64,000 nt of DNA from assembly GCA_052327205.1 (NCBI GenBank), contig CM126210.1, positions 15,190,001 to 15,254,000 on the forward strand. Reading direction: 5' to 3'. Below are positions 7,848 through 52,611 of this stretch, one piece after another (positions within the stretch are counted from its first letter, which is position 1; the number at the start of each line of letters is the position of its first letter). A program made the translations under genes and the position numbers. The stretch is from Somniosus microcephalus. Taxonomy: Eukaryota. Below the pieces are notes generated by a model. The model did not search any database, was not told the origin of the DNA, and was given only the letters and a program-made list of their open reading frames with translations.

Positions 7848-9940
7848 TAGCCATTGTCTCGCTAGAAAAGTACAGCCTCCTTACACACTGCTCCTCAGCG
7901 AACTGTAGGTATGTTGTTATGGGCCTGTACACCTTAATAGGAGGTTGAAGAATTTCTGCGAGCACGCCTCCTTCTATTTGCCTTTCCTGCAGTCGCAGCT
8001 CTGCATGCTCCTTCCTCCCGAGTCTCCAGTTCCTCCTCTTCCTCTGGCTAGAGTGGAATTGGCAAAAGGACCCCATGGAAAAAAGGTGCATTGCTGGGGG
8101 CCCCTAAAGAGTTCAGAACACTCCACAGGCACGACAGGCACTTTGAGATTACCTAAGAAGCCAAAAAGCACAATGTCATAGCAGAGAAATGCCTCCCAAA
8201 ACCCTCCACGGTTTTTACCTGAGTGTAGCTGAGGACCCTTTTAATGCTGCTAAAAATGACCACTGCCCGACTTGTACCGTCCACGTTTTGTGGCTGGTTG
8301 AGGAACTGACGATAGCAATGCGGGTAGAGAGCAAAATGGTGTCAGGGTTCAGAACATAATTCGACCCTGATTTACATATATTTATTAGGCCCCCCCACCT
8401 GTTTCATGCAGGAACACTGGCCGCCCAAATCAGGGTCTGCTCATAAATGGGAGCGGGCAGACATCCAGTGGCATGTCCGCGATGATTCTTTTTTAAAAAT
8501 TCATCCCGCTACTGCCCTACTTACACCTGAAAATGAAACCGTTGGCCCCATAATACATAGATTTCCATTGACAATGCTGGACACTTGTCATCCGTATAAA
8601 GGGGATTTTCCGACCTGATCGCCGCAGTACTTATGAAGGGCGACACCCAAAACATTCACCTGCTGTCGTCTCTCGGTTGCCGTGGCTTTCCTTTTTACTT
8701 CAGGTTGTAAAGGTGGGCCTGTAAGTAGTCAAAGCTTACATGTATCTCCTCGACAGAACAAATTGCTCATCAGCTTCTGGCTGATTAACTCAAGGATATC
8801 TGGCTGCTTGCTAAAAAAAATGTCCCAGGCGATTTAGCAGTGCAGGATTAAGAAAACGATGATGGATATGCACTAACTGTGTAGGAGTGAAGTGCCTTAA
8901 AGTTGTCAATAGAAAGCAAATTGTTATTTTGGGGAAGTCATGCAGGCATTCCTCAGAGACAGACATGCTGCGAGTGAGTCTGTAAAACTTTATTTACTTC
9001 TAACAGACATAATACCATGTTTAGAAGACACTTAATGTGACATTTATTTAAGGTGATTATCAGCTTACATACCTCCAAAAGATTAAAAACACCTGTCCCT
9101 GTCTGCACGCAGATGTGCCCCTGTGGGGAGCACGTTTAAGCAAACAAATGGAACAGAAGGTTTTAATTCTATAAATCTTACCAGCCTGTTATAATATACC
9201 AATAAGGTTACAGTTAGCGCCTTGCAGCAGTTCAACAGATATGAACTTCCAGAAAGTTCATTAAAGGACAGACCTTACTGAATTTCTTACACGTAACTCA
9301 TTTATTGACTTGATCAACACATCTTCCTCTGATAAATAATAAAGAAGCGAGCATTTATATAGGGCCTTGTCACATCAAAACGCTTGCCATAAACTGGGAC
9401 CAATAATGCTCGCTGTGTATCTGGCACTGTGGAGCTGGTTTCTGTAGATAAAGCAAACTCAGTCCATTTTAATCATCTTTTGGTGCACCGTGCACATTTC
9501 TCGTGACGTGCAGGGAGTGCCAGGACTGTGTTCTCGACTGCTAGCAGATAACGGAAGGCTGTTGGTTGCCAGCTGTTTTGCAAAGGCACTTTCCCCGCAA
9601 AGGAGAGGGGGGCTGGGGGCGGGGGGGAGGACCACTGGGCACAGGGCTCAGGAGTCAAATGGCAAGGAGGTTTTGGGGAGGAGGTGTGGGGAAACAGTCC
9701 AAACGGCCAGGGGTGACAGTGGGCCAGAGGGGCCGAGAGAGAAATTGATTTTTTTTAAATTTGAATGGTGGTCTTGCTTTCAGCACCCATTGGGAACGGA
9801 CACTGTGCAGCTGGAGCGCATTATGCATTGGCCACCTAATTAACATTGAAGTCAGGGTCCTAATGAACCTCGAGCATAGCTTTCATGCCAGCTCCCAGTC
9901 CTCTTTGTACTGGCACATTGGGGTACGTCATAGAGTCAGT

Positions 9941-17815: not shown

Positions 17816-18286
17816 CAAGGAAACTCTTTTTTATCCGGCAACGACGGGACCGGCGTGGTGCCGGTTGATCAAAAAGTCCGGATTACAGAGAGGTATACTT
17901 ACCAAAGTACGAGAGCCCCGTACACGGCCACAAGTGCAGGAGCCCCGGTTACACGGCACTTGTGCAGGAGTCCCAGTTACACGGCCACAGATCCAGAAGT
18001 CCCGGTTACACGGCCACAAGTGCAGGAGCCCCGGTTACACGGCACTTGTGCAGGAGTCCCAGTTACACGGCCACAGATCCAGAAGTCCCAGTTACACGGC
18101 CACAGATCCAGAAGTCCCGGTTACACGGCCACAGGTGCAGGAACCCCGGTTACACGGCCACAGATCCAGGAACCCCGGTTACACAGCCACTAATATATAG
18201 TAAAACTTACCTGAACCTACTCCTGAATTTTGCCGGTTAAGAGAGATTTCCGGATATTTAGGTGTCAGATAAAAGAGAGTTTCTTG
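17816..18286. mobile_element. Tc1/mariner (pogo/Tigger-like) MITE with TA TSD, carrying an internal minisatellite
   Basis: TA-CAAGGAAACTCTTTTTTATCCGG ... TCAGATAAAAGAGAGTTTCTTG-TA imperfect TIRs. TA is duplicated inside the SINE tail. Confidence 0.75.
17911..18190. repeat. 28-29 bp minisatellite, ~10 units
   Basis: Unit GGAGCCCCGGTTACACGGCCACAAGTGCA with recurring variant types. Confidence 0.9.
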
Positions 18287-18660: not shown

Positions 18661-21522
18661 TCAGTACCCTGTCCCTGCCTTCTCCCCATATCCCTTGATC
18701 CCTTTAGCCTCAAGAAATATATCCAACTCTTTCTTGAATGTATTTAATGAACTGGCCTCCACCGCCCTCTGTGGCAGAGAATTCCACAGGTTCACCACTC
18801 TCTGGGTGAAGAAATTCCTCCTCATTTCTGTCCTAAATGGCTTACCCCTTATCCTTAGACTATGACCCCTGGTTCTGGACTCCCCGACCATCGGGAACAT
18901 CCTTCCTGCATCTAGTCTGTCCAGACCTGACAGAATTTTATAGGTTTCGATGAGATCCCCTCTCAATCTTCTAAACTCCAGTGAGTATAAGCCCAATTGA
19001 CACAATCTCTCCTCGTACATCATTCCTGCCATCCCAGGTATCAGCCTGGTGAATCTTCGCTGCACTCCCTCCATGGCAAGAATGTCCTTCCTCAGGTAAG
19101 GTGACCAAAACTGCACACAATACTCAAGGTGCGGTCTCATCAAGGCCCTGTACAACTGCAGCAAGACATCCTTGTTCTTGTACTCGAACCCTCTTGCTAC
19201 GAAGGCCAACATACCATTTGCCTTCTTAACCGCCTGCTGCACCTGCATGCTTACCTTCAGCGACTGGTGCACAAGAACACCCAGGTCTCTTTTCACTTCC
19301 CCTTCTCCCAATCTATTGCCATTCAAATAATAATCTGCCTTCCTGTTTTTGCCACCAAAGTGGATAACCTCACATTTATCCACATTATAGTGCATTTGCC
19401 ATGTTTCTGCCCAATCACCCAACCTGTCCAAATCGTACTGGAGTTTCATGACATCCTCCTCACAGCATACCCTCCCACCCAGCTTTGTGTCATCTGCAAA
19501 TTTGGAGATATTACATCCAATTCCCTCGTCCAGATCATTAATATATATTGTGAACAGCTGGGGTCCTAGGACCGATCCTTGCGGTACCCCACTAGTCACT
19601 GCCTGCCACTCGGAAAATGACCCGTTTATTCCAACTCTTTGCTTTCTGTCCGCCAACCAGTTCTCTATCCAAGTCAATACCTTGCCCCCAATCCCATGTG
19701 CCTTAATTTTGCAGGCTAACCTCTTATGCGGGACCTTATCGAAAGCCTTCTGAAAGTCCAAATACACCACATCCACTGGTTCTCCCTTATCTATTTTACC
19801 AGTCACATCCTCAAAAAATTCCAGTAGATTAGTCAAGCATGATTTACCTTTTGTAAATCCATGTTGACTTTGTCCGATCCTGTCACTGCTTTCCAAGTGC
19901 TCTGCTATTACATCTTTTATAATGGACTCTACCATTTTCCCCACTACCGATGTCAGGCTTACTGGTCTATAATTCCCCGCTTTTTCTCTGCCACCTTTTT
20001 TGAATAGTGGGGTAACATTAGCTACCCTCCAATCCATGGGTACTGTTCCAGAGTCTATCGAGTTCTGGAAGATGACCAGCAATGCATCTACTATTTCCAG
20101 GGCCACTTCCTTAAGTACCCTGGGATGTAGATTATCAGGCCCTGGGGATTTATCGGCCTTCAGTCCCATCAATTTTCCTAACACCATTTCCCTACAAATA
20201 CTGATTTCTTTCAGTTCCACCCTTTCATCAGACCCTATGTTCTGCGGTATTTCTGGGAGGTTATTTGTGTCCTCCTTTGTGAAGACAGAACCAAAATATG
20301 TATTTAGTTGGTCTGCCATTTCTTTGCTCCCCAATATAAATTCCCCCGATTCTGACTGCAAGGGGCCTACGCTTGACTTCACCAATCTTTTTCTCTTTAC
20401 ATATCTATAAAAGCTTTTACAGTCAGTTTTTATGTTCCCTGAAAGCTTACTCTCGTATTCTATTTTCCCTTTCTTAATTAATCCCTTTGTCCTCCTTTGT
20501 TGAATCCTAAACTGCTCCCAATCCTCAGGATTATTGCTTTTTCTGGCCAATTTGTAAGTGCTCTCCTTGGATCTTATGCTATCCCTAATTTCCCTTGTTA
20601 GCCACGGTTGAGTCACCGTTTTTGTTTTATTTTTATGCCAAACTGGGATGAACAACTTCTGTAGTTCATCCATTCGGTCTTTGAATGTTTGCCATTGCCT
20701 ATCCACCGTCAACCCTTTGAGTGCCATTCCCCAATCAATCCTACCCAACTCGCTCCTCAGACCATCGTAGTTTCCTTTATTTAAATTGAGGACCCTAGTT
20801 TCTGAATCAACTACTTCATTCTGCATTTTAATGAAGAATTTGATCATATTATGATCGCTCCGACCCAAGGGGCCTCATACAACAAGATTGCTACTTAATC
20901 CTTTCTCGTTACATAATACCCAGTCTAAGATGGCCTGATCTCTGGTTGGTTCCTCGACATATTGGTCCAGGAAACCATCCCGTAAACACTCCAGGAATTC
21001 CTCCTCCACAGTATTGTTACTAATTTGGTTAGCCCAATCTATATGTAGATTAAAGTCACCCATGATGACTGCTGTGCCCTTATTGCACGCTTCTTTAATT
21101 TCCCTTTTAATGCTATCCCCAACCTCCGCCTTACTGTTTGGAGGTCTATATACCACTCCCACTAATGTTTTTTTCCCCTTAGTATTCCTCAATTCTACCC
21201 ATACAGATTCCACCTCATCAGAGCTAATATCCTTCATTACAATTCTGTTAATCCCTTCTTTAACCAGTAATGCTACCCCTCCTCCCTTTCCTTTTTGCCT
21301 ATCTTTCCTGAATATCGAATACCCCTGGATGTTGAGTTCCCAGTCTTGGCCGTCCTTGAGCCACGTTTCCATAATCCCAACCAAATCATATTCGTTTACC
21401 TCTATTTGCGCAGCCAATTCATCCACCTTATTACAAATGCTCCTCGCATTAAGACACAAAACCTTCAGGCTTGATTTTTTAACGCTCTTAGACCTATTAG
21501 AATTATTATTTACTGTGGCCAC
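18661..21522 (-). pseudogene. CR1 ORF2 (APE endonuclease + reverse transcriptase) with one in-frame stop at 20875-20877
   Basis: ORFs 20875-21522 (NARS, ETWL, GGGV, YRPP, GDFN) and 18661-20868 (SDH, NYRPVSLTS, YLDFQKAFDKV, SGVPQGSVLGP, FADDTK) share a frame and are separated by a single TGA (LVV*GPLG). Confidence 0.95.
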
Positions 21523-21644
21523 GTTTGATTTAAACCGTTGATTTCTCTGACTGCCACTTTTTCTTTTTTCCTTCCTATCTTTTGCTTTTATCCTTGTTTC
21601 CCTTTCCTCTGTCTCCCTGCTCAGGTTCCCAACCCCCTTCCATT

Positions 21645-22590
21645 TTAGTTTAAACCCTCCCCCAGAGCACTAGCAAACACTCCCCCTAGGACATCGGTTC
21701 CAGCCCTGCCCAGGTGCAGACCGTCCGGTTTAAACTGGTCCCACCTCCCCCAGAACCGGTTCCAATGTCCCAGGAACTTGAATCCCTCCCCCTGGCACCA
21801 TTCCTCTAGCCACGTATTCATCTGAAGTATCCTTCTATTTCTACTCTGACTAGCACGTGGCACTGGTAGCAATCCTGAGATTACTACCTTTGAGGTCCTG
21901 TTTCTTAATTTACCTCCTAACTCCCTGTATTCCGCTTTTAGGACCTCATCCCGCTTTTTACCTATATCGTTAGTGCCTATATGCACCACGACAACTGGCT
22001 GTTCATCCTCCCCTTCCAAGATGTTCTGCAGCCGCTCGGAGACATCCTTGACCCTTGCACCAGGGAGGCAACACACCATCCTGGAGTCTCGTTTGCGGCC
22101 GCAGAAACGCCTATCTATTCCCCTTACAATTGAATCCCCTATTACTATAGCTCTACCACTCTTTTTCCTCCCATTCTGTGCAGCAGAGCCTGGTGCCAGG
22201 AAGTTGGCTGCTGCTGCCTTCCCCTGATAAGCCATCCCACCCAACAGTACTCAAAGTGGTGTATCTGTTGTAGAGGGGGATGGCCACAGGGGACCCCTGC
22301 GCTACCTGCCTGCGCCTAGTACTCTGCCTGTTGGTCACCCGTTCCCTTTCTTCCTGTCCAACATCTACCTGTGGTATGTCCAACTCCCTAAATGTGCTAT
22401 TCACAATTTCCCGAGCATTGTGAACGCTCCAGTATGCATCCAATCACAGCTCCAGCGCCACAATGCGGTCTGTCAGTAGCTGCAGCTGGGTGCACTTCCT
22501 GCACACGTAGTTGTCAGGGACACAGGAAGTGTCCCTGAGTTCCCACATATCGCAGGAGGAGCAGATCACAGGGCTGGGCTGTCCTGCCGT
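21645..22590 (-). pseudogene. CR1 ORF1 (N-terminal Cys zinc finger plus SGNH/GDSL esterase), disrupted
   Basis: CSSCDMWE...CRKC at ~22490-22565, then IGDSIVRG, CLPGA, HIGTND and DGLHL in ORF 21645-22244. The start is mutated (ACG), with one stop and one frameshift. Confidence 0.85.
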
Positions 22591-22822: not shown

Positions 22823-23133
22823 GCCTCTGGTGCTCCCTCACAGGTCCGCTGCCTCTCCGGTCTCGGGGCTCTGGGCCTCGCTGCCTCGGGCTGCTGTTTA
22901 AGTACCTCTGCCGCCTCTGGTGCTCCCTCGCAGGTCCGCTGCCTCTCCGGTCTCGGGGCTCTGGGCCTCGCTGCCTCGGGCTGCTGTTTAAGTACCTCTG
23001 CCGCCTCTGGTGCTCCCTCGCAGGTCCGCTGCCTCTCCGGTCTCGGGGCTCTGGGCCTCGCTGCCTCGGGCTGCTGTTTAAGTACCTCTGCCACCTCTGG
23101 TGCTCCCTCGCAGGTCCGCTGCCTCTCCGGTCT
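22823..23133. repeat. 90-bp GC-rich tandem repeat, ~3.5 near-identical copies, forming the CR1 5' end
   Basis: Units start at 22823, 22913, 23003 and 23093. Confidence 0.95.
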
Positions 23134-46960: not shown

Positions 46961-47484
46961 CCGCGAATGGCACTGTTCCAGTGAGTTTTAACTGGAGTAG
47001 CAAACAGGGAGCTGATTAATGTCGCACTTGCCTTAGCAACAGCTGCGACTAAACGTTGCCACCAGGGGCAGAGACCATCATGTTTTTCTAGCCACATACA
47101 GGCTAGCAAACAGGGCGTGACGGCCAAAAGCAAAATTACATATCAATTTTAAAACGCACTGACGCATGAGCAATTGTTTCTCTGTTCCGGTACAAAATAA
47201 ATGAGGCAGTTTAGTAGTGCTGGGAGCTCCAGACAATATTACAGAGCTGCTTCTTGAAGCAGTGCTGCAATATAAATATGCTATGAGGCACAAGGCCATC
47301 CTCAGACTGCCTGTATGATAAGTGTAACACAGGCGTAGAAATTGCAATGCATTTTGCCCATGTTTCGGGTCCAAAACGAGCGCAACGATCACCATGTTGG
47401 CTCGATAGGCGTCCCTGGCGGCCGCCTGGAACAATCGCCGGCCTCATCAAATGGTTAATAAGGGTCCATCGCCCAAATCAGGAC

Positions 47485-47739
47485 TGTAAAGTCTGTGGGT
47501 TGTGCAGTTAATAAATACACAGACTTCAGAAGTAACAAACAAACAGGTCTTTACTATTCGAAGGTCCGGGTGAATCTGCCCCAGCAATCATGCCACAACA
47601 CTTATATACTGGTGTGGTCACTATCGGTATTACAGTATACAGAAGCCAAACAAATAGTGCCACACCTAAAGTAGTTCCCTTAAAGGTGAACGGTTACATT
47701 CAATAGTTCCCTTAAAGATAGACGGGTACATACACTACA
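47485..47739 (-). repeat. 3' LTR (255 bp)
   Basis: Direct repeat of 52230-52484. TATATAAG and AGTAAA on the - strand. Confidence 0.97.
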
Positions 47740-47740
47740 A

Positions 47741-47752
47741 TCCTCCCTTTTT
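47741..47752 (-). promoter_or_regulatory. Polypurine tract
   Basis: AAAAAGGGAGGA on the - strand, one base before the 3' LTR. Confidence 0.85.
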
Positions 47753-48163
47753 AGCTTATTACTTACAGAGTCCCCGTTAAACATACATATCTTCAAATTC
47801 CTATAAAACAAATTACAGATATAATCTCGGTGGAGCCAATGTCATATAAAACAATTTACAAATATAATCTCGGTGGAAACAGTTCACAGGTTCAGTCTCT
47901 GCGGAAACAGTTCATAGATTCAGTCTCTGATCTTGACTCGTTCCGAACAACATTTCTTTGGTGTAGCCGGTTCACCTGGCTAGCGTGACTCCTCCATAGC
48001 CTTTTTCTTGATGTAACAGCTTGAACTTTCGTCCTGTTGAACCAGCAGTGCGGACTTTTACAACCAACTGGCTGTCTTGACATTTTCCAGTTTTTCAACT
48101 AATTTAGCTCCTTTCGTAATGTCCCGCCTGGAATGGTAGAAGTGCTAATATTTTAGACAGTTA

Positions 48164-51046
48164 TTATCTTCTGCTTCTTCTTTTTCTTTTCTGCCTTTTT
48201 GAAACTCTCGGAGCTCCTTTCTCGGCTGCCAGCTGTAGCGCCACCAACTCTCTATGTTCCTTAGACCTTAAGTGCTTCATCCGGATTTCAGCACTTTGAG
48301 AGTTTTCATCACAAGCTGGGCAGACCACATCCTCGTAATATTCAGTGTCACTCAACAGGTCATGGTAATATTCAGGTTCGTCCTGAGTTAGGCCAGCGAG
48401 AGAGACTTCTTCTTCCTCCTCACCCGTCTGGACGTTAGCTGACGGTGGTTCCTTCCCTAAACATCTTTCTTGAAAAGCCTTCTTCATGCATTCACATTCA
48501 TCCCGCTCTTCCTGGGTTATCTGCCATTCCTTCACGACGGACCTCATTTGTGAGTTCAATACCTTCCTTTCCATCGGTAATTGCGTTATCAGGCTATTTA
48601 ACCCTTCTACTGAAATAACGGTTTCCACATTCTTCTGTTCACCTTGACGTGATTCAATGTACTTTTGGCATCCTTGTAAAATTTGTGTTGCCACCTCAGC
48701 TATCTCCGTGACTTTTGAGAGCTCCGAACTCGTTCCCCCTGAAGATTGAAGCTCGTGTTCAGATTGTTCCCCTTGCCGAGTCTTGTCCTTCAGCATATGA
48801 AGGAGTTGGCCGACCGTTAACTCTTCCCTGGGAACACGGTGGATCAGAGTCTTCTCCATTTCATCCACCTCTTTCTCCAATACTTCCACCTTACGTTCCT
48901 CTTGAACTTTGGCTTTCAGCGCTCGGCAAAGTTGCGCCCTGATGCTCTCTAGTTCATGTTCAGGGACCATTCTTACAGTGTCCTGTTCTTCCACTGAAAG
49001 GATTCCCAGTTGAATCTGTTCTTCAAGTTGTTGAACCTCGGTCATTGCCGCCTCATACTTCTCTTGGGTGTCCTTCAATGTTTTTATAAGTTCTTGGACA
49101 TCCTGTCTTTCATGCTCTGCCATGATTTTCACCTCTAATTGCTCATCTATGGATGGAGCTTCTATCGATGAGTCTGTCTTGGCCTTGAGTTCATCAAGAA
49201 TTTCCTGCAGCCTTTGGACTTCTTGCTCATGTTCAACCTTTAGTTGTTCATATGCTTCTACTGAAACTAGCTTTTCGGAGGCTGCCGAGTTAACCCCCTC
49301 CAGAATTGTAGCCTGGGCCTGTTCATACTGTTCTTTCAACTTCTCACACTCTGCTTGTAAGGAGTCGTAGAGAAGAATTGGAATAAAATCCTGGCTCCCT
49401 GAAGATTCCTCTTCCTTTGGTTCATTCTGTAAATATTCTAGTTCCTGAACAGCATCAGGGGAATGTGATTGGTATTTGACCACGATGGCTCTATGGTCGC
49501 TCTCTGCTTGAGCTAGCTGTCTCTGTAGTCTTTCCAGGTTCCCCCATTCGGTGTCCCAGAACTTTTCCATATTTTTCATCTCCTGTACGAGACGGTCACT
49601 CAACTGTTCTAATTGTTGTCGTACTTTGACATAAGTTTGCGTCCGAGCTTGGTGTTCTTCCGTCATGGATGAATCCTTTGCTTGAACAGGCTCAGAATTC
49701 TCTGTCAACCTGGAGTTCTGCTCTGCAGCTTTATTCTTCTTGGTACCATAAGTCCTTCTGCATGTCTTCGCTTTCTTTCCCATCGTCGGCAAGTCCCTTT
49801 TAGCCTTGTCTTCCATTTCCGACTTGGTCTTATCATCATCCATTTCAGAATCTGAGCTAATAGCTTGCACCGAGTCCTCCCTCATTATGGCTTTTAGGTA
49901 ATGCCATTCCATGTCTATTTTCTTAATCCACTCCCGTCCTAGAAGTGGTGGTCCTCCCTCAGATAATACGTACAAGTTCATTCTTGGGTGTTCTTTACCC
50001 CTATCTCTCACCTTGACTCTTATTTTCCCCACGGGGTATACGTTATGCCCCATGTATGTCTGTAATACGAACTTGGTATTTCTTAAAGGTATGTGAGAGA
50101 ATAGCCGGTGGTAGTCCCTTCGGTTGATGACTGATAGAGCTGATCCAGTGTCCAGCTCCATTCTTACTTGGACTCCAGCTATTTTTAGTATGACCCAGAT
50201 GGCCTGTAGATCAGTTTCTTTACCCACATTGTGGATTCTCAGACTACCCAGCTCCTGGTTGTTTGGGTCTGAGTCTGAATTCTGTTCGTCTGAACTCTTC
50301 TCAGCCACCTTGTGTACCTTGTTGTACTTTTCTGGTGGTGGCTTCCTTTGATTATTGGTCTTTTTCCCGGACCGGCATACCTTCGCGATGTGACCCAGTT
50401 TGCCACACTTCCTACACTCTTGGTTCTTAAACCAGCATTGATTCTGGTCATGCGTTGTCTTCCCACAACGGTAGCATTTTGTTGTGCTTGAAGTAATTTG
50501 GTCCACCCCGAGTGCCGCCGCCTTTAGTTGCATTTCCGCCGTTCCTTTCGCTGCGGCTTCGTGCGATGCAGCTATAAGGACAGCCCTGTCCAGTGTGAGA
50601 TCGTTCTCTTCCAGTAGTCGCTTCTGCGTCCCTTCTTTGGACAATCCGCATACGAACTTGTCCCGCAGCGCTTCTGTCAGATTCCCTCCGAACTGGCAGT
50701 ATTTCGCTAGCCTACGCAGTTCGACCAAGTATTCCGCATTGCTTTCGTCTTTCTTCTGCGTTCTTGCGTAGAATTTGAATCGTTCAGCCAGCATCAGCGG
50801 TGTGGGGTTCAAGTGGTCCTTCAGCACAGCCACAATCTCTTCGAAGGTCTGATCCGCTGGTTTATTTGGTGCTATTAGATGCTTCAAGAGCCCGTATGTT
50901 TTTGCCCCCATCGAGTTTAGCAATGTTATCGCCTTGTCGTCTTCCTCTATTTTGTTGGCTTCGCAATAGATCTCTATGCGTTCCACGTACGTGGCCCAGT
51001 CTTCTATTTCAGAATTAAAGTCGTTAATATTCCCTCGCTTAGGCAT
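48164..51046 (-). CDS. 960-aa Gag - 2x CCHC zinc knuckle - aspartic protease - coiled coil (ANKRD24/RAI14-like) - C2H2 zinc finger (DNAJC21-like) - basic tail fusion protein
   Basis: Gag motifs W..[31 protein letters not shown] and LRDKFVCGL. Knuckles [14 protein letters not shown] and [14 protein letters not shown]. Protease ELDTGS (D299) ... LLGREW. E/Q/K-rich heptad region ~aa 470-860. CPAC...HLRSKEH from C909. Ends [11 protein letters not shown]. Host-protein similarities are from memory. Confidence 0.9.
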   Translation of the reverse strand: [960 protein letters not shown]

Positions 51047-51339
51047 CTTTCTTCCCTTGGGAGCAGCACCAGTATTTCTTTAAGTATTCTTATTTATTTG
51101 TTTGTTTCTAAGATGGTGGTTTTCCCGCGAAATCGGCGGTTTCCTGCTCTTTCCTTCTCTCCCCGCCCACTTCAATGGCGGTATGTCAATCAAGATGGCG
51201 GTTTTCCCGCGAAAATGGCGGTTTCCCGCTCTTCCTTTCTCGCCCCGCCCACTTCAATGGCGGTTTCCCGCTTCTGGCGTCTTCTCCGCCTAATGGCGGC
51301 TTCCCGCGTTTCTTCCCGGTGGAAGGGGTACGCTTCCCC

Positions 51340-51750
51340 CACAGCGGACAGGTTCAGCCGCTGGCTGGCTACCGCACAGCTCCCCTTACTCGGCTATGTC
51401 TTTTCCTCCCGCCCGCACGGCTCTACCGGCGCTGGGTACACCCCGTTAACGGAGGACAGTTCAGCCGCTGGACTGGCTCTCGCGCAGTCTCTCTCTCCGT
51501 ACCCGGCTCTGTCGCTCTCTCACCCGCACGTTCGGTGCTACCGGCCCTGGGTACCCCGTTGGTGGAGAACAGCTCAGCCGCTGGACTGGCTCTCGCGCAG
51601 TCTCTCACCCCGTTTTCGGCTGTGTCTCTCACCCACTCCCGCACGTTCGGTTTTGCCGGCTCTGAGCACCCCGTTGGTGGAGAACAGCTCAGCCGCTGGA
51701 CTGGCTCCTCGCAGTCTCTCTCTCCGCACCCGGCTCTCACCCGCACGGTT
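51340..51750. repeat. Imperfect ~107-115 bp tandem repeats in the LTR element leader
   Basis: TCAGCCGCTGG(A)CTGGCT recurs at ~51354, 51461, 51574 and 51689. Confidence 0.8.
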
Positions 51751-52218
51751 CCCGTTCGCCTCCCCAGCCCTCTCGCAGACCGGTGTTTCCCTCCCCGGCT
51801 GCGGCTGGGTTTCTCTTCCCGCGCCTACTCGCAGGCTCAGCGCTTCGTGGCTGCGGTTGCTGCCCGGAGTTTTCCCGCCGATCGCGGTCCGGCTGTCACC
51901 CGACGCCGTTGGACCCGACTTTTGGCCGGCACAGCTCCCCCTCGACCGAGGTCGAGTGCTCTGCCCTTATCCTCCGGATACTTCTACACCTTCCCCTACT
52001 CACAGTCTCTTCGGCCGCCTTGTTTCTTGCTGGTCGGCTCACTCCGCACCGTGGCAGAAGGGTAGTCAGTGCCTGTTGCTGATACAGCTTTTGTTGTTAG
52101 TCTTCCTGCTTTCTGTTGTTGCAGCCTCGTGTTTTCTTTTGGTAGCACGACGAGGGCGGTTGTCTCTCTTCGACGCTCTTCGTTGCTTTTGGTAGTCTTG
52201 CCGCAGGGTACGATCGGA

Positions 52219-52228
52219 CTCGTCGCCA
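52219..52228 (-). promoter_or_regulatory. Primer-binding site TGGCGACGAG (complementary to the 3' end of tRNA-Ser(GCU))
   Basis: Located 1 nt inside the 5' LTR. Vertebrate tRNA-Ser(GCU) ends ...CTCGTCGCCA (recalled). Confidence 0.8.
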
Positions 52229-52229
52229 C

Positions 52230-52484
52230 TGTAAAGTCTGTGGGTTGTGCAGTTAATAAATACACAGACTTCAGAAGTAACAAACAAACAGGTCTTTACT
52301 ATTCGAAGGTCCGGGCGAATCTGCCCCAGCAATCATGCCACAACACTTATATATTGGTGTGGTCACTATCGGTATTACAGTATACAGAAGCCAAACAAAT
52401 AGTGCCACACCTAAAGTAGTTCCCTTAAAGGTGAACGGTTACATTCAATAGTTCCCTTAAAGATAGACGGGTACATACACTACA
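52230..52484 (-). repeat. 5' LTR (255 bp)
   Basis: Direct repeat of 47485-47739 with two substitutions. Confidence 0.97.
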
Positions 52485-52611
52485 AGGACCCTTTCATGTA
52501 ATTGGTGTCTGGGAGCACCTGATTCGTCAGTTCCTAACCCCTCCCAGCAAAACATGGCACTCACAGTCGGGAAGGAGGATCCAGCGGCAATATTTAAAGA
52601 GATCATCGGTT

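What the first reader, a model, noticed from the sequence alone, without database searches (positions are those of the whole stretch)
47485..52484. Young Gypsy LTR element whose pol is replaced by captured host-gene fragments fused in frame to Gag-protease
Seen in sequence: near-identical 255-bp LTRs (2 differences), TSD AGGAC, PBS, PPT and one uninterrupted 960-aa ORF. The ORF has Gag, two CCHC knuckles and a DTG protease, but no YxDD RT, RNase H or integrase core. About 580 aa of non-retroviral sequence follows the protease in frame. From remembered vertebrate proteins: [24 protein letters not shown] resembles RAI14 [43 protein letters not shown] resembles ANKRD24 [41 protein letters not shown]..DAVQ resembles the ANKRD24/RAI14/UACA C-terminus ([23 protein letters not shown]). 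The ORF end resembles DNAJC21. Inference: a non-autonomous retrotransposon that transduced spliced host mRNA pieces, as acutely transforming retroviruses do, and is mobilised in trans. An open frame across diverged captured segments suggests the fusion protein may be selected, perhaps as protease-released cargo in Gag particles or a nuclear/nucleolar effector.
Basis: partly seen in the sequence, partly recalled or inferred. Interest (0 to 1): 0.93.

Follow-up and report, generated by a model that had tools for sequence, protein, structure and literature searches.

The report
Shark retrotransposon built from circular RNAs
A young, high-copy jumping gene in a shark-type genome has swapped its own enzyme genes for pieces of four host genes, two of them copied across the exact back-spliced joint of a circular RNA, which shows how circular RNAs can be written back into a genome.

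Summary
In detail: 255-bp LTRs (2 differences), 5-bp TSD, PBS, PPT and one 960-aa Gag-protease ORF without RT, RNase H or integrase. It is one of at least 61 dispersed near-identical copies, so not an assembly artefact. The cargo comes from four host genes: an STK10/SLK-family kinase, an ANKRD24-like gene, optineurin and DNAJC21.

The ANKRD24-like piece joins the end of a late exon exactly to the start of an upstream exon, a back-splice junction. Founder-type relatives carry a second exact back-splice: one complete 1,245-nt lap of a five-exon kinase circle, 98-100% identical to the host. It is inserted at an 11-nt microhomology into pol of a Gypsy partner that is still in the genome.

Gag and protease are under strong purifying selection (dN/dS 0.05, 0.16). 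The cargo is relaxed (about 0.6-0.8) and swappable between subfamilies, but stays stop-free. Best reading: a non-autonomous element making its own Gag captured circRNAs during reverse transcription and keeps them as in-frame filler, not as a host-like effector. Precedents exist (maize Bs1; mouse circRFWD2 copies), but not, in my searches, a full-lap, in-frame, repeated case. The host circles were not seen in RNA.

The parts
47480..47484 (.). Target-site duplication (left copy, AGGAC)
47485..47739 (-). 3' LTR, 255 bp
   Evidence: 80% identical to the LTR of a pol-bearing relative
47741..47752 (-). Polypurine tract
47989..48060 (-). 3' UTR remnant of the early part of kinase exon K2 (downstream end of the captured STK10/SLK circle), followed by the integrase-tail remnant
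   Evidence: 76% to host K2 1733-1806; 75% over 69 nt to the integrase end of a pol-bearing copy
48164..51046 (-). Single 960-aa ORF: Gag - protease - host cargo
48197..48397 (-). DNAJC21-derived C2H2 (jaz-type) zinc-finger piece, followed by a basic C-terminal tail; limits approximate
48413..48827 (-). Optineurin-derived piece (aa about 741-878), colinear with the host protein
48820..49444 (-). First 643 nt of large exon A of the ANKRD24-like gene (18 nt deleted), starting exactly at the splice acceptor
49444..49445 (-). Back-splice junction: 3' end of exon C joined to 5' start of upstream exon A
   Evidence: same exon-C end and junction position in 25 of 25 gap-free copies, with scattered point changes, and in sister subfamilies
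49445..49510 (-). Whole 66-nt exon C (penultimate coding exon) of the ANKRD24-like gene
49511..49528 (-). Last 16-18 nt of exon B of the ANKRD24-like gene, normally spliced to exon C (shows a spliced-RNA origin)
49515..49652 (-). Remnant of kinase exons K4 and K5 (PKK domain of an STK10/SLK-family gene)
49683..49883 (-). Remnant of the late part of kinase exon K2 (entry point of the captured circle)
49892..50200 (-). Aspartyl protease (DTG at aa 299)
   Evidence: dN/dS 0.16
50357..51046 (-). Gag with two CCHC knuckles
   Evidence: dN/dS 0.05
51047..52218 (-). GC-rich 5' UTR with 115-nt and 82-nt tandem repeats
52219..52228 (-). Primer-binding site TGGCGACGAG, shared with all relatives read; tRNA-Ser assignment is recalled, not tested
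52230..52484 (-). 5' LTR, 255 bp
52485..52489 (.). Target-site duplication (right copy)

Best explanation
This is a young copy of a non-autonomous Ty3/Gypsy lineage that still makes its own Gag and protease and borrows RT and integrase from pol-bearing relatives (shown: anatomy, copies, partner; inferred: trans-mobilisation). The lineage began when reverse transcriptase jumped onto a co-packaged circular RNA made of five exons of an STK10/SLK-family kinase gene. It copied exactly one lap and jumped back at an 11-nt microhomology, replacing RT-RNase H-integrase in frame (shown: sequence order, exact junction, unit length, microhomology; inferred: circular template, template switching inside the particle). 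Later switches swapped in optineurin, DNAJC21 and then a piece of a second circle from the ANKRD24-like gene, including its back-splice junction (order inferred from subfamily architectures). Selection acts on the replicating lineage. It keeps Gag and protease intact and keeps the frame open to near the old integrase stop, but tolerates most amino-acid change in the cargo. So the cargo works mainly as in-frame filler for a Gag-Pol-like polyprotein that helps its own RNA in cis, through translation-coupled packaging or RNA stability (inferred, about 60% on its own).
For: Copies: 28 best matches are 98.3-100% identical; 26 of 28 have a perfect, different TSD and 20 of 28 keep the whole ORF; 61 distinct loci across. 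ANKRD24 junction: host exons A-B-C-D all have AG/GT ends; the element reads B|C|A with both joints exact; sister subfamilies match the host at 95.6-97.5% over 725 gap-free nt. The uncaptured part of exon A is single-copy. Kinase junction: the acceptor and donor patterns each hit once in 6.4 Gb, 6.5 kb apart, with the acceptor upstream. L046 and L047 read K2 late|K3|K4|K5|K1|K2 early at 98-100% identity. The circle is 1,245 nt, stop-free in frame; the captured length is 1,259 nt, the extra 14 nt covering the 11-nt match to the pol stub. Chance that a backward in-frame microhomology jump lands on both an exon end and an exon start: at most 6 of 4,508 and 15 of 5,732 possible jumps. Partner: 5 of 5 sampled pattern hits continue into RT (RVT_1 E 9e-29; Ty3 RT best in PDB). 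Selection: Gag 0.05, protease 0.16, all cargo 0.60, ANKRD24 piece 0.79. No stop among about 220 post-protease substitutions between subfamilies, 11-14 expected. 3 of 3 ORF indels (window vs L034) are in frame, against 6 of 34 UTR indels (window vs the L030 copy). Private post-insertion changes look neutral in the cargo, 111 non-synonymous to 41 synonymous, with 8 stops overall. Cargo differs between subfamilies.
Against: Neither host circle was seen as RNA: exons C and D had no whole-exon coverage in the two RNA runs laid, so the test was uninformative. The stop and indel tests used sister copies that I picked for long open frames (L033, L034, L036), which biases them. The splice-site consensus raises microhomology at exon borders, so the two null figures are rough. 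Host-versus-element comparisons of the ANKRD24 piece give dN/dS 0.29-0.53 (p about 0.01-0.02; partly host constraint), and the DNAJC21-like end gives 0.29, so the cargo is not pure filler. The one pol-bearing LTR read is only 80% identical to this subfamily's LTR, so its direct helper was not found. About 30 nt at the 3' exit of the kinase lap have no clear source. No protein or translation data.
Confidence: 0.75

Rival explanations
1. Same origin, but the cargo is a working part: a coiled-coil spacer and a basic, nuclear-localisation-like tail that help protease dimerisation, particle assembly or nuclear entry, or a protease-released decoy of optineurin or DNAJC21.
For: The DNAJC21-like end plus tail has dN/dS 0.29 (p 0.001), and all cargo together 0.60 (p 0.003 at kappa 2; 0.73, p 0.04 at kappa 4). 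An Arg/Lys-rich C-terminus arose twice by different routes. The protease is conserved although there is no pol to process. The PKK remnant is kept in every subfamily read.
Against: ANKRD24, PKK and linker pieces are not distinguishable from neutral between subfamilies (0.79, 0.82, 0.63; window branch 0.66, p 0.17). Cargo is replaced freely, including by Ig domains. The founder subfamily ends in the native integrase tail, not a basic one. The zinc finger is degraded in the window lineage (Pfam E 0.011 against 3e-8 in L032).
Confidence: 0.3
2. The inverted exon order came from linear RNA: trans-spliced or exon-repeat transcripts, or RT jumping backwards on linear mRNA at splice-site-like microhomology. 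No circle was involved.
For: Short matches exist at the ANKRD24 junction (TTCAG|G with the intron end). Dong et al. 2016 note that non-colinear junctions can arise by other routes. No circle seen in RNA (uninformative).
Against: Two independent junctions are both exact at both exon borders. The kinase capture is one unit length plus only the microhomology, which a linear repeat gives no reason for. Null figures are 6 of 4,508 and 15 of 5,732.
Confidence: 0.08
3. A host-domesticated chimeric gene, selected for the animal's benefit at this locus.
For: Long intact ORF with host domains.
Against: The locus is one of many near-identical dispersed copies with their own TSDs. Inserted copies collect stops and neutral-looking changes.
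Confidence: 0.03
4. Assembly chimera.
For: None found.
Against: At least 61 loci on many contigs with distinct TSDs; the junction is shared by three diverged subfamilies.
Confidence: 0.005

Closest known systems
LTR-mediated retroposition (Tan et al. 2016, PMC5131818; passages read)
   Same: Host RNA pieces replace internal ORFs by microhomology-guided template switches, several genes can be combined, the products act as non-autonomous elements and are often in frame.
   Different: The main text has 0 occurrences of circRNA or circular RNA. Here two captures cross back-splice junctions, the cargo is fused to a Gag-protease under strong purifying selection, and the frame stays open across subfamilies 13% apart.
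circRNA-derived pseudogenes, mouse circRFWD2 (Dong et al. 2016, PMC4897178; whole text and supplement passages read)
   Same: Genomic copies with an exact back-splice junction; at least 33 copies with LTR-rich flanks and MMERVK10C-int sequence marked in the figure legend.
   Different: Those are described as pseudogenes and the authors call the mechanism mysterious. Here the host exons, the pol-bearing parent, the switch-point microhomology and a full one-lap copy are all visible, the capture is in frame with Gag, and it happened twice in one lineage.
Maize Bs1 (seen only through review passages: PMC13317346; PMC5131818; the primary paper was not held)
   Same: LTR element carrying pieces of three host genes in a chimeric, translated ORF.
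   Different: Plant; no back-spliced source mentioned in the passages read. Here four donors in this copy, at least five across the family, in a vertebrate, with many intact young copies.
Mouse IAP 1-Delta-1 (seen only through review passage PMC6466679; primary paper not held)
   Same: Non-autonomous LTR element whose in-frame Gag fusion protein acts in cis and which out-replicates its autonomous partner.
   Different: That fusion is gag to deleted pol, with no host sequence.
Acutely transforming retroviruses (own knowledge)
   Same: Gag fused to captured spliced host sequence, helper-dependent.
   Different: No env. The captured kinase circle lacks the kinase domain, and the cargo shows relaxed, not function-level, constraint.

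Membership tests
Ty3/Gypsy LTR retrotransposon lineage | Direct LTRs with TG...CA ends, 4-6 bp TSD, PBS and PPT | tested here: met
Ty3/Gypsy LTR retrotransposon lineage | Gag with CCHC knuckles and aspartyl protease | tested here: met
   above Pfam cut-off in relatives
Ty3/Gypsy LTR retrotransposon lineage | Ty3-like RT, order PR-RT-RH-IN | tested here: met
   Met in the pol-bearing relatives only: RT follows PR, RNase H follows RT, best PDB hit Ty3 RT E 4e-44; the integrase core was not fetched, only its end
Autonomous Gypsy element | Own RT, RNase H, integrase | tested here: not met
Mag clade of Gypsy | RT phylogeny places it with Mag/K02A2.6-like elements | not tested
   Single Gag-Pol frame and PBS fit from recall; no reference RT set was available
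LTR-mediated retrocopy | Intronless host pieces replacing internal ORFs, between two LTRs, no poly(A) | tested here: met
LTR-mediated retrocopy | Microhomology at switch points | tested here: met
   11 nt at pol to K2, 7 nt at K5 to B, 4 nt at the K2-K4 deletion; optineurin and DNAJC21 joints not checked against host DNA
circRNA-derived retrocopy | Exact exon-end to upstream exon-start junction, with colinear single-copy host exons | tested here: met
   ANKRD24-like C|A in the window copy; kinase K5|K1 in relatives, overwritten in the window copy though both flanks remain
circRNA-derived retrocopy | The parent circle is detected as RNA | tested here: inconclusive
   host exons C and D not covered in 2 of 2 RNA runs; kinase circle not tested
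Domesticated Gag-derived host gene | Single conserved locus under host selection | tested here: not met

The most novel reading that the evidence does not exclude
This lineage preferentially packages and copies host circular RNAs, the optineurin, DNAJC21 and Ig-domain cargos also came from circles, and the selfish element uses circle-encoded open frames as a working extension of its Gag polyprotein. That would be a standing route from back-splicing to new, amplified chimeric proteins in a vertebrate germ line.
Probability: 0.3. Interest if true: 0.92.

Novelty: new variant of a known kind. Interest (0 to 1): 0.82.

Why it matters
How circular RNAs get written back into genomes was left open by the paper that first described such copies (PMC4897178). 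This family shows the parts in one genome: the host exons, the pol-bearing parent, the switch-point microhomology and a copy exactly one circle long. That makes the LTR template-switch route directly testable. It also fixes two germ-line circRNAs of a shark in DNA, shows serial exon shuffling inside a living selfish lineage, and gives a natural series for asking why Gag-keeping non-autonomous elements hold a long open frame. In practice, these repeats will mimic back-splice reads and ANKRD24, optineurin or STK10 paralogues in annotation of this genome.

Tried and rejected
Profile search of the post-protease part against 50%-identity representatives gave 10 hits; the best is a ray ankycorbin, the other nine carry no name, and none aligns beyond the region that begins at the ANKRD24 piece. 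The homologue search of aa 400-960 listed only host ANKRD24-like/ankycorbin proteins, 20 of 20; no cargo-bearing element protein of another species, but candidates were capped at 8,000, so this does not show absence. The Atlas search of the zinc-finger piece was a lead only. Sequencing-run search: no RNA holder listed. Reads laid on exons C-D: no whole-exon coverage in X14 or X15, so no test of the circle. Eight X14 reads on the first 32 nt of exon C, all in one direction, may be element transcripts; too few to count. The summed contig depth of DNA run X8 on that stretch is about a thousand times single-copy level, but the tool says this is no copy number. The first hunt for an autonomous partner, by open-frame length among 150 protease hits, failed: the 3 long-frame copies fetched were all cargo-bearing. 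A junction pattern then found the partner. Tandem duplication of host exons was rejected for this assembly. The long plus-strand frames over the 5' UTR (317 and 424 aa) were taken as GC-rich by-products and not tested further. Earlier-findings look-ups returned nothing. Literature: ten full-text searches showed no paper on circRNA capture in frame by an LTR element beyond Dong 2016, and none naming circSTK10, circSLK, circRAI14, circANKRD24, circOPTN or circDNAJC21. Subscription journals are mostly missing from that library, and bioRxiv supplements were closed.
Full report
Observation. The element lies on the minus strand at 47485-52484. Its 255-bp LTRs differ at 2 sites, and it has the TSD AGGAC, a PBS and a purine tract. 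One 960-aa ORF (51046-48164) holds Gag with two CCHC knuckles and a DTG protease. Pfam finds no RT, RNase H or integrase at E<=1, and the RT/RNase H and integrase-end parts of a pol-bearing relative find nothing in it. Best protein hits point to a cartilaginous fish; the assembly is 6.4 Gb.

It is a family, not a locus. The 28 best genomic matches are 98.3-100% identical over about 5 kb. Of these, 26 have a perfect TSD, each different, and 20 keep the whole ORF. A search with the 3' part adds 33 more loci, giving 61 distinct ones; its first look had 1,840 candidates, which is not a count but suggests hundreds to thousands. LTR pairs of 25 gap-free copies differ at 0-5 of 255 sites, mean 0.7% (3 of 28 copies with gaps or a short alignment were left out). 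Two sister subfamilies with the same architecture are about 87% identical to the window ORF; 18 of 41 element rows have an unbroken frame of 983-985 codons.

The cargo. Amino acids about 388-510 come from an STK10/SLK-family kinase gene (PKK domain E 1e-16 in a relative; DNA match to the host gene). Amino acids 507-742 come from one ANKRD24-like/ankycorbin gene (E 9e-75), 741-878 from optineurin (E 3e-12), and about 885-945 from DNAJC21 (E 3e-15 with the sister copy L032; direct alignment of the window protein). Whether the kinase is STK10 or SLK was not settled.

First back-splice junction. The host gene on contig C13 has exons A (1,512 nt), B (165), C (66) and D in that order, all with AG/GT borders and phase 0. 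The element reads: last 16-18 nt of B, all of C, then the first 643 nt of A. B|C is the normal splice; C|A joins a donor to an upstream acceptor, exact to the base. Sister copies match this order at 97.1-97.5% and 95.6-95.9% over 725 nt, the window copy at 88%. The uncaptured part of exon A occurs once in the genome, so no duplicated exon explains the order. A+B+C is 1,743 nt with no stop when read round and round.

Second back-splice junction and the full lap. Older subfamilies carry the PKK end directly followed by a stretch that, in solved SLK and STK10 structures, follows the kinase domain and so lies upstream of PKK. Patterns for that stretch behind an acceptor and for the PKK end before a donor each hit once in the genome, 6.5 kb apart on C8, with the acceptor upstream. 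The five exons K1-K5 total 1,245 nt, in frame and stop-free as a circle (one intron has a GC donor). At least 39 copies keep the undeleted K2 end. The two fetched, L046 and L047, read K2 late, K3, K4, K5, K1, K2 early at 98-100% identity, then the native integrase end. The captured stretch is 1,259 nt: one circle plus 14 nt. Those 14 nt contain an 11-nt word shared by host K2 and the start of RT in pol-bearing copies. Reading a little more than one lap needs a closed or repeated template, and stopping there fits RNase H having destroyed the first lap (inference). Among in-frame backward jumps with microhomology, exon-end to exon-start pairs are at most 6 of 4,508 (4 nt or more, ANKRD24) and 15 of 5,732 (3 nt or more, kinase). 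These are rough, because splice sites share consensus letters. The window copy has lost K5|K1 itself but keeps late K2, K4 and K5 upstream of the newer cargo and early K2 in its 3' UTR.

Partner and order of events. A pattern for the RT start not followed by host sequence gave 22 loci. All 5 sampled continue into RT, with RNase H in the longer fetches, closest to Ty3 RT in the PDB. One ends in the same integrase tail, with an LTR 90% identical to L046 and 80% to the window element. Architectures seen: full circle (L046, L047); circle with an internal K2-K4 deletion (L040-L044); plus optineurin (L031, L037, L038); plus DNAJC21 (L032); Ig-domain cargo (L039; obscurin-like from recall, I-set domains by Pfam); and the ANKRD24 piece replacing the front of optineurin (window, L030 copy, L033-L036). 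The order is inferred from nesting, not from a tree. Synonymous divergence between the window and L033 is 0.54 in Gag but 0.18 in the cargo, which suggests recombination between lineages.

Selection. Window versus L033, with kappa 2 (non-coding estimate 2.2): Gag 0.05, protease 0.16, kinase linker 0.63, PKK 0.82, ANKRD24 0.79, optineurin 0.60, DNAJC21-like plus tail 0.29, all cargo 0.60 (p 0.003; 0.73, p 0.04 at kappa 4). About 220 post-protease substitutions include no stop, where 11-14 are expected. ORF indels against L034 are 3 of 3 in frame, against 6 of 34 in the UTRs of the L030 copy. Against L033 the aligner also placed a compensating 2-nt pair. These tests are biased because I picked intact sister copies, but most differences are lineage-fixed and most copies of the window subfamily are intact. 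Private changes in inserted copies look neutral and include 8 stops, so selection acts on the replicating lineage and not on the inserted copies. Against pure filler: host-to-element dN/dS of 0.29-0.53 on the ANKRD24 piece (partly host constraint), the constrained tail, and a basic C-terminus that arose twice.

Mechanism. Shown: non-autonomous anatomy, dispersed young copies, four donors, two exact back-splice junctions, a one-lap copy, microhomology, a pol-bearing relative, purifying selection on Gag and protease. Inferred: circular templates co-packaged in particles (about 90%); template switching by the element's RT; cis action of the Gag fusion, as reported for mouse IAP 1-Delta-1 (review passage); cargo mainly as in-frame filler (about 60%) rather than a working part (about 30%). 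RNA evidence is lacking: the two RNA runs laid did not cover the host exons.

Comparison. It works like LTR-mediated retroposition (PMC5131818, passages) and like maize Bs1 (review passages), and it meets the sequence test for circRNA-derived copies (PMC4897178, whole text and supplement passages). That paper already links 33 mouse circRFWD2 copies to LTR sequence but leaves the mechanism open. In ten searches I found no report of a whole circle captured in frame with Gag, of two such captures in one lineage, or of this shark family; the library lacks most subscription journals. PMC11872487 was read in passages only and added nothing.

Verdict: real; a new variant of known kinds; interest 0.82.

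Noticed in passing
L030:721-5612 (G000:C13, intron between exons B and C of the ANKRD24-like gene): A family copy (own TSD, LTRs 4 differences, one frameshift and a stop) sits antisense inside the very gene it captured from. The pre-mRNA would carry an inverted copy of about 725 nt, 96% identical to its own exons, which could form double-stranded RNA and affect splicing, editing or small-RNA silencing. It may be chance given the copy number.
   Followed up: partly
L039:2-1870: A sister subfamily carries about 350 aa of I-set Ig domains (obscurin-like from recall; titin and obscurin hits in PDB) inserted into the kinase circle, in frame: a fifth donor gene.
   Followed up: partly
L031, L032, L037, L038 (optineurin-long subfamilies): The longer optineurin piece includes the segment recalled as the LC3-interacting motif, fused to Gag; the window lineage has lost it. 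A possible link to autophagy, untested.
   Followed up: no
window 48164-48230 and L032/L040 ORF ends: An Arg/Lys-rich C-terminus arose twice: from DNAJC21 plus a shifted kinase-exon frame here, and from a shifted integrase tail in older subfamilies.
   Followed up: partly
L045 (G000:C8:167.19 Mb): Exon K3 of the host kinase gene ends at a GC donor (GC-AG intron), confirmed by the spliced copy in L046.
   Followed up: yes
window 18664-21669, minus strand: A LINE with endonuclease and a 737-codon RT frame, one of many related LINE fragments in the window; ordinary.
   Followed up: partly
window 17921-18190 and 22823-23133: Tandem arrays with 29-nt and 90-nt units, the second 99% identical between copies; not examined.
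   Followed up: no
listing, G000:C44, C45, C53, C151: Several optineurin-bearing copies with identical scores on small contigs suggest a segmental or tandem amplification, or duplicated haplotype pieces.
   Followed up: no
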